Assembly (NCBI RefSeq): GCF_056746865.1
Contig: NZ_CM163382.1
Reading direction: 5' to 3' (one strand)
DNA: 64,000 bases
Position 1 is the first letter of the stretch, and each line of letters opens with the position of its first letter. A program made the position numbers. Positions 38,701-41,700 of this stretch are shown piece after piece.

Positions 38701-41700
38701 TACGCCGATTCAAAAAGTGCCACAGTCTATTTCTGTTGTGACCGCCGAAGAGATGGCGCTGCATCAGCCGAAGTCGGTAAAAGAAGCTCTTAGCTACACT
38801 CCTGGCGTTGCCGTGGGAACTCGTGGCGCATCCAACACTTACGATTACCTGATCATCCGCGGATTCGCCGCTGACGACCAAAGCCAGAACAACTATCTGA
38901 ATGGCCTGAAGATGCAGGGCAACTTCTATAACGATGCAGTTATCGATCCGTATATGCTGGAGCGCGCCGAAATCATGCGTGGTCCGGTATCCGTGCTGTA
39001 CGGGAAAAGCAGCCCTGGCGGCCTGTTGAACATGGTCAGCAAGCGCCCGACTACAGAACCGCTGAAAGAAATTCAGTTTAAAGCCGGTACTGACAGCCTG
39101 TTCCAGACTGGTTTTGATTTCAGTGATGCGCTGGATGATGACGGCGTTTACTCTTATCGTCTGACTGGTATTGCGCGTTCAGCCAATGCTCAGCAGAAGG
39201 GGGCAGAAGAGCAGCGTTATGCTATTGCTCCAGCGTTCACCTGGCGCCCGGATGATAAAACCAATTTCACTTTCCTTTCTTACTTCCAGAACGAACCGGA
39301 AACCGGTTATTACGGCTGGTTGCCGAAAGAGGGAACCGTTGAGCCGCTGCCGAACGGTAAGCGTCTGCCGACAGACTTTAATGAAGGGGCGAAGAACAAC
39401 ACCTATTCACGTAATGAGAAGATGGTGGGCTACAGCTTCGATCACGAATTTAACGACACCTTTACTGTGCGTCAGAACCTGCGCTTTGCGCAAAATAAAG
39501 TCTCGCAAAAGAGCGTATATGGCTACGGCATGTGCTCGGATCCGCTGTATACCAAAGACGACGATGCACTCAAGGCGAGTCCATGTTTAAGTATCCCGCA
39601 GTCAGAATGGAATCATACACTGACTCGTCAGTACGTTATCGATAATGAGAAATTAGAAAACTTCTCTGTTGATACTCAGTTGCAAAGTAAATTCGCAACC
39701 GGCTCGGTTGAACACACTCTGCTGACCGGCGTTGACTTTATGCGTATGCGTAATGATATTGACTCCTGGTTCGGTTACGCCGGTTCCGTTGCACCGTCTG
39801 ATATCTATAATTTAGACCGTAGTGACTTTGATTTTGGTGCTCACCCGGATCCGTCGGGCCCATACCGCGTTTTGCTTAAACAGAAACAAACCGGTCTGTA
39901 TGTTCAGGATCAGGCGCAGTGGGATAAGGTGCTGGTGACTCTGGGTGGTCGCTATGACTGGGCGGAACAGTCATCTTTCAACCGTGATTACGGTAATAAA
40001 TCCGATCGTGATGACAAACAGTTCACCTGGCGTGGTGGCGTAAACTACCTGTTCGACAACGGGGTAACGCCTTACTTCAGCTACAGTGAGTCGTTTGAGC
40101 CAGCATCTTTGACAGATGCAAACGGTGATCTGTTTGCACCTTCGAAAGGCAAACAGTATGAAGTTGGTGTGAAATATGTGCCGGAAGATCGCCCAATTGT
40201 GCTGACGGGCGCACTGTATCAGCTTACCAAAACCAACAACCTGATGGCGGATCCGAATAATCCCAATTTCTCGATTGAAGGCGGTGAGATTCGCGCTCGT
40301 GGTGTAGAACTGGAAGCAAAAGCGGCGCTGTCGGCGAGTGTTAACGTGGTTGGTTCTTATACCTATACCGATGCGGAATACACTACCGATACTACCTACA
40401 AAGGCAATACGCCTGCACAGGTGCCAAAACACATGGCTTCGCTGTGGGCTGACTATACCTTCTTTGACGGTCCGCTTTCAGGTCTGACGCTGGGCACCGG
40501 TGGTCGTTATACTGGCTCCAGCTATGGTGATCCGGCTAACTCCTTTAAAGTGGGAAGTTATACGGTCGTGGATGCGTTAGTGCGTTATGATCTGGCACGA
40601 GTCGGCATGGCTGGCTCCAACGTGGCGCTGCATGTCAACAACCTGTTCGATCGTGAATACGTCGCCAGCTGCTTTAACACCTATGGCTGCTTCTGGGGCG
40701 CAGAACGTCAGGTCGTTGCAACCGCAACCTTCCGTTTCTAATTTCTCTTTTGGGGCACGGATTTCCGTGCCCGTTTCACAAGTTGGCTGTTATGCAGGAA
40801 TACACGAATCATTCCGATACCACTTTTGCACTGCGTAATATCTCCTTTCGTGTGCCCGGGCGCACGCTTTTGCATCCGCTGTCGTTAACCTTTCCTGCCG
40901 GGAAAGTGACCGGTCTGATTGGTCACAACGGTTCTGGTAAATCCACTCTGCTCAAAATGCTTGGTCGTCACCAGCCACCGTCGGAAGGGGAGATTCTTCT
41001 TGATGCCCAACCGCTGGAAAGCTGGAGCAGCAAAGCGTTTGCCCGCAAAGTGGCTTATTTGCCGCAGCAGCTTCCTCCGGCAGAAGGGATGACGGTGCGT
41101 GAACTGGTGGCGATTGGTCGTTACCCGTGGCATGGCGCACTAGGGCGCTTTGGTGCGGCAGATCGCGAAAAGGTCGAGGAAGCTATCTCGCTGGTTGGCT
41201 TAAAACCGCTGGCGCATCGGCTGGTCGATAGTCTCTCTGGCGGCGAACGTCAGCGGGCGTGGATCGCCATGCTGGTGGCGCAGGATAGCCGTTGTCTGTT
41301 GCTCGACGAACCGACCTCGGCGCTGGATATCGCCCACCAGGTTGACGTGCTGGCGCTGGTGCATCGTTTAAGTCAGGAACGTGGTCTGACGGTCATTGCC
41401 GTGCTGCACGATATTAATATGGCGGCGCGCTACTGTGATTATCTGGTCGCCCTGCGCGGCGGTGAAATGATTGCTCAGGGAACGCCTGCGGAAATTATGC
41501 GCGGCGAAACCCTCGAAATGATTTATGGCATCCCGATGGGTATTCTGCCGCATCCGGCGGGTGCTGCACCTGTGAGTTTTGTTTATTGATGAGCGGCTTA
41601 CCTCTTATTTCGCGCCGTCGACTGTTAACGGCGATGGCGCTTTCTCCGTTGTTATGGCAGATGAATACTGCCCACGCGGCGGCTATTGATCCCAATCGTA

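What the first reader, a model, noticed from the sequence alone, without database searches (positions are those of the whole stretch)
40754..40771. Stable hairpin immediately after fhuA within the fhuACDB operon
GGCACGG-ATTT-CCGTGCC directly after the fhuA stop could act as a partial terminator or an RNA-stability element, giving higher receptor than transporter expression.
Basis: seen in the sequence. Interest (0 to 1): 0.2.

Follow-up and report, generated by a model that had tools for sequence, protein, structure and literature searches.

The report
Hairpin that ends the fhuA message
A conserved RNA hairpin between the ferrichrome receptor gene fhuA and the transporter genes fhuCDB marks where most fhuA transcripts end; this is an ordinary, already familiar way for bacteria to make more receptor than transporter from one operon.

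Summary
An 8-bp GC-rich stem with a 4-nt loop (GGGCACGG-ATTT-CCGTGCCC, 40753-40772) lies 11 nt after the fhuA stop codon and 19 nt before the fhuC ATG in an E. coli window.

Evidence that it is a selected RNA structure:
- A perfect stem is present at all 78 Enterobacteriaceae junctions where fhuA ends just upstream, with compensatory changes (99% of cells paired).
- It has mismatches only at the 3 loci where fhuA is deleted, truncated or separated by an insertion.
- The T-tract after the stem is not conserved: it is canonical in Enterobacter and Leclercia and weak in E. coli (GTTTC), so a terminator scan misses the E. coli site.

Published long-read data for K-12 (Yan et al. 2018, supplement) already list a fhuA-only primary transcript ending 5 nt past the stem (window 40777). 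311 reads end there or within 50 nt downstream, and 15 read through.

The characterised fecA-fecB hairpin has the same layout.

Best reading: a leaky intra-operon 3'-end-forming and protecting hairpin that uncouples fhuA from fhuCDB mRNA levels. Whether the ends arise by weak intrinsic termination or by trimming back to the stem is unresolved. This is a new member of a known kind, of low interest.

The parts
38391..38420 (+). fhuA promoter (-35 TTGCGA, 18-nt spacer, -10 TATTAT). The TSS equivalent to K-12 167427 is at 38426. A Fur-box-like AT-rich repeat lies just downstream.
   Evidence: Promoter scan; K-12 TSS from Yan 2018 mapped to the window; sequence.
38483..40741 (+). fhuA coding sequence (752 aa allele), stop TAA at 40739-40741.
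   Evidence: ORF list; RefSeq annotation of identical E. coli sequences.
40742..40752 (+). 11-nt U-rich spacer between the stop codon and the stem. This spacing is 8-12 nt in 75 of 77 other species.
40753..40760 (+). 5' arm of the hairpin, GGGCACGG.
40761..40764 (+). Loop ATTT. It is ATTA in some E. coli, and TTCG, CTTG, TTT or others elsewhere.
40765..40772 (+). 3' arm of the hairpin, CCGTGCCC.
40773..40777 (+). Short tail GTTTC (ATTTC in K-12). The published K-12 3' end at 169763 corresponds to 40777.
40780..40786 (+). Conserved AAGTTGG, a weak Shine-Dalgarno-like motif for fhuC.
   Evidence: Conserved columns in alignments A1 and A2. The SD assignment is my inference.
40792..41589 (+). fhuC coding sequence (265 aa), the first gene downstream of the hairpin.
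41586..44458 (+). fhuD and fhuB ORFs (41586-42479 and 42476-44458 as listed mechanically), the rest of the operon that depends on read-through.
   Evidence: ORF list. Gene names follow from K-12 operon order; the exact start codons were not checked.

Best explanation
The hairpin is an RNA element inside the fhuACDB operon that defines and protects the 3' end of a monocistronic fhuA mRNA, while a minority of transcripts continue into fhuCDB. As RNA polymerase leaves fhuA, the 8-bp GC-rich stem forms 11 nt after the stop codon. In this E. coli only a short U-run follows (G-UUU-C). I therefore infer that the site is a weak, leaky intrinsic terminator, and that the same stem acts as a barrier to 3'-to-5' exonucleases. 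RNAs that end a little further downstream, from termination or cleavage in early fhuC, would be trimmed back to it. The result is a stable fhuA-only message in excess over fhuCDB message, so more outer-membrane receptor than ABC transporter. Shown: the structure, its conservation and covariation, its link to the presence of fhuA, and (from published K-12 data) a 3' end 5 nt past the stem with little read-through. Inferred: the split between termination and trimming, the stabilising effect, and the effect on protein ratio.
For: (1) Structure: -15.9 to -17.5 kcal/mol, z about -2.8 to -3.3. (2) Conservation: all 78 junctions with fhuA ending just upstream have a perfect 7-10 bp stem. 99% of cells pair versus 34-63% when partners are slid, with AU<->GC swaps at one pair in 15 of 64 sequences and 0 of 500 shuffles reaching the covariation score. 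One species has a different 10-bp hairpin in a shifted register at the same place. (3) Natural experiment: the only imperfect stems are at L035 (fhuA deleted), L076 (fhuA internally deleted) and L077 (86-nt insertion with its own hairpins between fhuA and the old stem). That is 3 of 3 versus 0 of 78, Fisher p about 1e-5 by my arithmetic, ignoring phylogeny. (4) The hairpin type follows the genus, not the exchangeable fhuA allele (fhuA recombination also reported in bioRxiv 10.1101/320069). (5) E. coli polymorphisms lie in the loop or flanks or give a G.U pair. (6) Published K-12 long reads: TSS 167427 to TTS 169763, with 86 reads at the site, 225 within 50 bp downstream and 15 passing through; fhuA alone is called an operon variant. 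(7) In Enterobacter and Superficieibacter the orthologous site meets the canonical terminator pattern. (8) The fecA-fecB junction has the same layout, and its hairpin is reported to down-regulate fecBCDE and leave a stable 2.5-kb fecA mRNA (Braun 2022, PMC9249621). (9) A roughly 700-nt fragment from the fhuA 3' part accumulates only without poly(A) polymerase (PMC5389530), which I read as fitting an RNA with a structured 3' end. (10) Fur-linked repression is graded along the operon: log2 -3.84, -2.87, -2.45, -2.01 (PMC8910356).
Against: The U-tract in E. coli is poor: 3 U in the first 8 nt, T-score 1.50, d'Aubenton-type score -12.9, and no hit in the terminator scan. It is not conserved even within Escherichia (GCTTC in E. 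whittamii and strain MEI003). Curated Term-seq 3' ends for MG1655 in LB and M63 list nothing at fhuA (Adams 2021), nor do the TERMITe tables. This may reflect low expression of a Fur-repressed gene. The Yan 2018 site was called only in rich medium. Their libraries were size-selected at 1-6 kb, so the ~7-kb full operon transcript could not be counted. More reads end in the 50 nt after the site than at it, so the origin of the ends is ambiguous. No half-life or protein data were examined.
Confidence: 0.72

Rival explanations
1. Purely post-transcriptional barrier. RNA polymerase does not terminate at this site in E. coli. All 3' ends arise downstream, by Rho-dependent termination or endonuclease cleavage in early fhuC, and are trimmed back to the stem by PNPase or RNase II.
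For: U-poor tail. 225 reads end within 50 bp downstream versus 86 at the site. Dar and Sorek 2018 show that U-less stem-loops mark trimmed ends of Rho-dependent transcripts. There is a mild C-over-G excess 30-100 nt downstream, +0.14 versus an operon mean of -0.05 +/- 0.07. The stem is conserved while the T-tract is not.
Against: The called end lies exactly at the end of the UUU run. Many orthologues carry canonical T-tracts at the same site. The region downstream is the translated start of fhuC. No Rho-termination region at fhuA or fhuC appears in the Adams 2021 table.
Confidence: 0.2
2. Element for fhuC translation. The hairpin, alone or with an outer helix pairing the fhuA stop region (CUAAUUU) with the SD-like AAGUUGG, shapes the fhuC ribosome-binding site or couples fhuC translation to fhuA translation.
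For: The distance from stem to fhuC ATG is held at 16-24 nt. The 66-nt fold draws the outer helix, and its core pairs form in most species.
Against: The outer helix shows no compensatory support, and its columns are already fixed by the stop codon and the SD-like motif. The stem decays exactly where fhuA is lost although fhuC is kept, so fhuC does not need it. The stem itself does not cover the SD or the ATG.
Confidence: 0.05
3. DNA-level palindrome: an operator for a dimeric protein, a REP-like repeat, or a recombination anchor for fhuA allele exchange.
For: It is a perfect inverted repeat. fhuA alleles recombine across species while the hairpin stays with the backbone.
Against: The loop, which sets half-site spacing, varies from 3 to 6 nt. 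Both arms change together, keeping pairing rather than sequence. The spacer is single-copy per genome and the hairpin sequence occurs once in the window, so it is not a REP/BIME. An RNA 3' end maps beside it.
Confidence: 0.02
4. Chance hairpin with no function.
For: None beyond the small size of the element.
Against: Expected about 0.001 per spacer. Conserved with covariation across dozens of genera.
Confidence: 0.01

Closest known systems
Hairpin between fecA and fecB in the E. coli fecABCDE operon (Enz et al. 1995, as summarised by Braun 2022, PMC9249621)
   Same: A TonB-dependent receptor gene comes first and ABC-transporter genes follow. A GC-rich stem with a 4-nt loop lies 9 nt (fec) or 11 nt (fhu) after the stop codon and 19 nt before the next ATG. 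The receptor-only mRNA dominates and the polycistronic RNA is rare.
   Different: The fec stem is 6 bp, is followed by UUUUAG, and passes the terminator scan. The fhu stem is 8 bp with a poorer tail (GUUUC) and does not pass. There is no sequence similarity. The fhu element has not been dissected experimentally in any paper I could search.
Internal terminators with U-poor tracts downstream of binding-protein genes in ABC-importer operons of cellulolytic Clostridia (Wu et al. 2022, PMC9045158)
   Same: An intercistronic stem-loop with low U content after the highly expressed first gene sets the ratio of flanking transcripts by termination efficiency and by stabilising the upstream RNA.
   Different: Different phylum. 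There the upstream gene is a substrate-binding protein rather than an outer-membrane receptor. Function was tested there but not here.
Protective 3' stem-loops of Rho-dependent transcripts (Dar and Sorek 2018, PMC6061677)
   Same: A stable stem-loop without a U-rich tract lies immediately upstream of a precise steady-state 3' end. The authors proposed evolutionary switching between terminator types through U content, which matches the variable T-tract at this orthologous site.
   Different: Those elements lie at ends of transcription units. This one is inside an operon, 19 nt before a translated gene. Rho dependence here is untested.
REP-mediated stabilisation of malE mRNA in malEFG, and the intercistronic hairpins of the Rhodobacter puf operon (recalled from memory, not checked here)
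   Same: An intercistronic structure blocks 3' exonucleases, so the upstream cistron's mRNA outlasts the downstream part.
   Different: The fhu hairpin is a single-copy local element, not a REP repeat.

Membership tests
Canonical intrinsic (Rho-independent) terminator | GC-rich stem-loop, stem about 5-14 bp, loop 3-8 nt | tested here: met
   8 bp, 7 G-C pairs, 4-nt loop, -15.9 kcal/mol.
Canonical intrinsic (Rho-independent) terminator | U-rich tract immediately after the stem (at least 5 T in 8) | tested here: not met
   The tail GTTTCACA has 3 T in 8. There is no hit in the scan, and the T-score is 1.50 with discriminant -12.9. The orthologous site does meet this in 27 of 77 other species, for example L019 and L055.
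Canonical intrinsic (Rho-independent) terminator | RNA 3' end mapped in vivo a few nt after the stem | tested here: met
   Published K-12 SMRT-Cappable-seq TTS at 169763, 5 nt after the stem. It was absent from the Adams 2021 Term-seq tables.
Canonical intrinsic (Rho-independent) terminator | Factor-independent release by RNA polymerase in vitro | not testable with these tools
   Needs single-round in vitro transcription.
Intercistronic 3' protective or stabiliser hairpin (fecA type; Dar and Sorek class) | Stable stem-loop directly upstream of the steady-state 3' end of the upstream cistron | tested here: met
Intercistronic 3' protective or stabiliser hairpin (fecA type; Dar and Sorek class) | Upstream cistron RNA more abundant or longer-lived than downstream RNA | tested here: inconclusive
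   311 reads end at or near the site versus 15 passing, but the libraries were size-selected. Fold changes are graded along the operon. No half-lives were available.
Intercistronic 3' protective or stabiliser hairpin (fecA type; Dar and Sorek class) | Longer 3' tails appear in pnp or rnb mutants; the structure is needed for stability | not testable with these tools
   Needs RNA-seq or Northern blots in exonuclease mutants and in stem mutants.
REP/BIME repeats | Many dispersed copies per genome sharing a consensus | tested here: not met
   The 50-nt spacer occurs once per genome in 5423 genomes. The hairpin occurs once in the 64-kb window even with 3 mismatches allowed.
Any curated RNA family (Rfam 15) | Covariance-model match | tested here: not met
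   No match in 38000-45000 apart from a chance-level isrG hit elsewhere (E = 9.8).
Hfq-binding 3'UTR-derived sRNA | Terminator with a long U tail, and Hfq dependence | tested here: not met
   There is no long U tail. Maes 2016 report that Hfq inactivation had no effect on fhuA transcript level or cleavage.

The most novel reading that the evidence does not exclude
The invariant stem is a fixed 3'-end anchor, and the few bases after it act as a lineage-specific dial. The same orthologous site runs from a canonical intrinsic terminator (Enterobacter, Leclercia, Pluralibacter) to a U-less protective hairpin (Klebsiella, Escherichia), tuning the receptor-to-transporter ratio species by species. 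The tightly held 8-12 nt between the fhuA stop codon and the stem would let the terminating ribosome gate hairpin formation, so that read-through into fhuCDB is coupled to fhuA translation.
Probability: 0.15. Interest if true: 0.45.

Novelty: new member of a known kind. Interest (0 to 1): 0.2.

Why it matters
It explains how one Fur-controlled promoter can yield much more FhuA receptor than FhuCDB transporter. It also shows that fhuACDB should not be treated as a uniformly expressed unit in expression models, or when engineering FhuA as a phage, colicin or antibiotic entry point. The set of orthologous sites, with the same stem and a T-tract ranging from none to canonical, is a convenient natural series for testing how U content converts a protective hairpin into a terminator. 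None of this changes current understanding of bacterial gene expression.

Tried and rejected
- Rfam search of 38000-45000: nothing relevant.
- Terminator consensus scan: does not call the E. coli site.
- Term-seq tables: Adams 2021 (complete files) and TERMITe have no fhuA entry.
- Supplements not held as text: Maes 2016, Dar and Sorek 2018, Choe 2022, Conway 2014, the 3'-seq meta-analysis and Grunberger 2022.
- Papers not held: Ju 2019 and the 1986 fhuA sequencing paper. I therefore could not check whether the dyad was noted when fhuA was first sequenced.
- Full-text searches for a described fhuA terminator or fhuA-fhuC hairpin found none.
- Outer helix between the stop region and the SD-like motif: no covariation, rejected as unsupported.
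- Rho utilisation signal downstream: only a mild C>G excess, inconclusive.
- REP or repeat origin: rejected.
- Minus-strand terminator: rejected by reading the sequence. The tail on that strand is A-rich, and no convergent gene lies there.

Full report
**What is there.** The window is E. coli. The 301-bp junction is found once per genome in 5423 of 5426 complete genomes and is annotated fhuA / fhuC. fhuA is the ORF 38483-40741 (stop TAA 40739-40741), and fhuC starts at ATG 40792. The stem is one pair longer on each side (GGGCACGG/CCGTGCCC, 40753-40772), begins 11 nt after the stop codon and ends 19 nt before the fhuC ATG.

The 20-mer folds at -15.9 kcal/mol. In the 50-nt spacer the fold is -17.5 kcal/mol, z = -2.76, and in 66 nt of context z = -3.3. 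Perfect stems of this size and GC content occur about 1.5 times per 64 kb in shuffled sequence, so about 0.001 are expected in a given 50-nt spacer. The hairpin sequence occurs only once in the window, and the 50-nt spacer is single-copy per genome, so it is not a REP-type repeat. No Rfam family matches.

**Is it selected?** I fetched 80 fhuC loci from other Enterobacteriaceae. At every junction where fhuA ends just upstream (77 loci plus the window) there is a perfect 7-10 bp stem of -12.6 to -19.6 kcal/mol. On 64 distinct sequences:
- 99% of cells form standard pairs, against 34-63% when partners are slid by 1-3 columns.
- One pair alternates A-U (49) and G-C (15), and two more pairs show double changes.
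- No shuffle of 500 reaches the observed covariation score.

Citrobacter also flips the apical pair (GGGCACGC...GCGTGCCC). Cedecea sulfonylureivorans has a different 10-bp hairpin in a shifted register at the same place. Loop length varies from 3 to 6 nt. This is the pattern of an RNA structure, not of a protein-binding DNA site.

Within E. coli, the sampled variants change the loop (ATTT/ATTA), the base after the stem (G/A) or the upstream U-run, or turn one G-C pair into G.U.

**A natural experiment.** Only three loci have imperfect stems (-7.8 to -11.3 kcal/mol), and they are exactly the three where an intact fhuA does not end just upstream:
- L035: fhuA is wholly deleted, and the Fur-box promoter is fused to the hairpin remnant.
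- L076: fhuA has a large internal deletion.
- L077: an ~86-nt insertion with two strong hairpins of its own separates the fhuA stop from the old stem.

That is three of three against none of 78, about 1e-5 by Fisher's test (my arithmetic, ignoring phylogeny; L076 and L077 share one substitution). fhuC is retained in all three loci, so the stem serves fhuA rather than fhuC.

FhuA itself is highly variable (55-90% identity to the window's protein). The hairpin type follows the genus rather than the fhuA allele class. This agrees with a preprint reporting that fhuA recombines between species while fhuCDB follow the species tree.

**Terminator or not?** The stem is conserved but the tail is not. 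Among the 77 other junctions, the first 8 nt after the stem hold >=5 T in 27, 4 T in 20 and <=3 T in 30.
- Enterobacter (TTTTTATTT) and Superficieibacter are called terminator-like by the consensus scan.
- The E. coli site (GTTTCACA; ATTTCACA in K-12) is not called. Its T-score is 1.50, with a negative d'Aubenton-type discriminant (ViennaRNA energies, so approximate).
- Even within Escherichia the U-run varies (GCTTC in E. whittamii and strain MEI003).

So the E. coli element fails one defining feature of a canonical intrinsic terminator, while its orthologues meet it.

**Experimental evidence already published.** The supplement of Yan et al. 2018 (SMRT-Cappable-seq, full-length 5'-triphosphate transcripts of MG1655) lists, in rich medium, TSS 167427 to TTS 169763 on the forward strand, covering b0150 only and labelled 'novelTTS'. 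The counts are 506 reads at the TSS, 86 ending at the TTS, 225 ending within 50 bp downstream, and 15 passing by >=50 bp (median extension 826 bp).

The K-12 hairpin is at 169739-169758, so the end lies 5 nt after the stem, at the end of the UUU run. By my arithmetic 311 of 326 reads reaching the site (95%) stop at or just after it.

fhuA alone is one of 55 'BinomialEnd' operon variants, and the read-through variants fhuA-fhuC and fhuA-fhuC-fhuD are also listed.

Caveats:
- The site was called only in rich medium.
- cDNA was size-selected at 1-6 kb, so the ~7-kb full operon RNA is not counted.
- Curated Term-seq tables for LB and M63 show no fhuA end, which may reflect Fur repression.
- More reads end in the 50 nt after the site than at it.

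**Other published hints.**
- Maes et al. 2016 saw a ~700-nt fragment from the 3' part of fhuA only in a poly(A) polymerase mutant, with fhuC and fhuD more affected than fhuA. I read this as fitting an RNA with a structured 3' end at the hairpin.
- Under microaerobic, Fur-linked repression the operon responds in a graded way: log2 -3.84, -2.87, -2.45, -2.01 for fhuA, C, D, B.

**Mechanism.** I conclude that the hairpin is an intra-operon 3'-end-forming and protecting element, confidence about 0.7. It combines weak intrinsic termination at the short U-run with a block to 3' exonucleases that trims longer RNAs back to the stem. The product is a stable fhuA-only mRNA, with a small read-through fraction feeding fhuCDB.

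The main rival (about 0.2) is that no termination occurs at the site in E. coli and the stem is only a trimming barrier. Dar and Sorek 2018 describe this for U-less stem-loops of Rho-dependent transcripts. The excess of reads ending just downstream and a mild C>G bias fit it. The position of the end at the U-run and the canonical T-tracts of many orthologues argue for some termination.

A role in fhuC translation is unlikely. The outer helix drawn has no covariation support, and the stem decays where only fhuC remains.

**Comparison with the known.** The closest case is the fecA-fecB hairpin of the paralogous ferric citrate operon. It lies 9 nt after the stop, has a 6-bp GC stem with a 4-nt loop and a UUUUAG tail, and ends 19 nt before fecB. 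Braun's review of Enz et al. 1995 states that this hairpin down-regulates fecBCDE, that the 2.5-kb fecA mRNA is the major stable species, and that fecABCDE is detectable only by RT-PCR.

Internal U-poor terminators after the first gene of ABC-importer operons are also described in Clostridia. The fhu hairpin is thus a new member of a known kind. Its 3' end sits in a public table but is not discussed in any paper I could search. I could not open the 1986-87 sequencing papers.

**Verdict.** The feature is an ordinary one, with unusually clean comparative support. Interest 0.2.

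Noticed in passing
window about 40137 and 40228 (K-12 169123 and 169214): Yan 2018 list novel internal TSSs inside the 3' part of fhuA that drive fhuC and fhuC-fhuD transcripts. 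K-12 has good -10 boxes there (TAATAT, TATAAT), but this window's fhuA allele (88.6% identical) has GATCTG and TATCAG. This strain may therefore rely more on read-through of the hairpin.
   Followed up: partly
K-12 169123-169763 (window about 40137-40777): The distance from the internal TSS to the hairpin 3' end is 641 nt. This is close to the ~700-nt 3' fhuA fragment that Maes 2016 saw only in the pcnB mutant and interpreted as a cleavage product. It may be the same RNA.
   Followed up: no
L035 2700-3003; L076 2700-3003; L077 2865-3000: There are three independent rearrangements of fhuA with fhuCDB retained: a whole-gene deletion that fuses the Fur-box promoter to the hairpin remnant, an internal deletion, and an ~86-nt insertion carrying two strong hairpins after the fhuA stop. 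In all three the ancestral stem has mismatches.
   Followed up: partly
window 44464-44486: A 10-bp GC-rich hairpin (TGCCTCGCCCGGTGGGCGAGGCA, -19.8 kcal/mol) fills the 34-nt gap between the convergent stops of fhuB and the minus-strand ORF 44493-45773 (hemL by K-12 gene order, not checked here). Neither strand has a clear U-tract, so the distal end of the operon also looks like a U-poor protective stem-loop.
   Followed up: no
window 38279-38305: An 11-bp hairpin (TACCGGATGGCGAGTAGCCATCCGGTA, -20.9 kcal/mol) lies 16 nt after the stop of the upstream 849-aa ORF and ahead of the fhuA promoter. It is followed by AAAATAAC rather than a U-tract.
   Followed up: no
window 40849-40866: A terminator-like site lies inside fhuC, about 57 nt into the ORF (CGTGTGCCCGGGCGCACG followed by CTTTTGCATC). 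It is beyond the 50-bp zone where most fhuA reads end in the K-12 data.
   Followed up: no
window 40738-40744 with 40780-40786: The fhuA stop region CUAAUUU can pair with the SD-like AAGUUGG of fhuC, enclosing the hairpin. The core pairs form in most species, but those columns are fixed by the stop codon and the SD-like motif, and there is no compensatory change. Translational coupling is possible but unsupported.
   Followed up: yes
L058 (CACSKA010000010.1): This contig is labelled Chryseobacterium sp. but carries an enterobacterial fhuA-hairpin-fhuC locus with 94% FhuC identity to E. coli. It is probably a contaminant or mislabelled contig.
   Followed up: no
L001-L080, last ~50 nt of fhuA: FhuA varies from 55 to 90% identity between loci. 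The last ~50 nt of the gene and the hairpin are nevertheless nearly constant within a genus, as if the downstream breakpoint of fhuA allele exchange lies just before the stop codon.
   Followed up: partly
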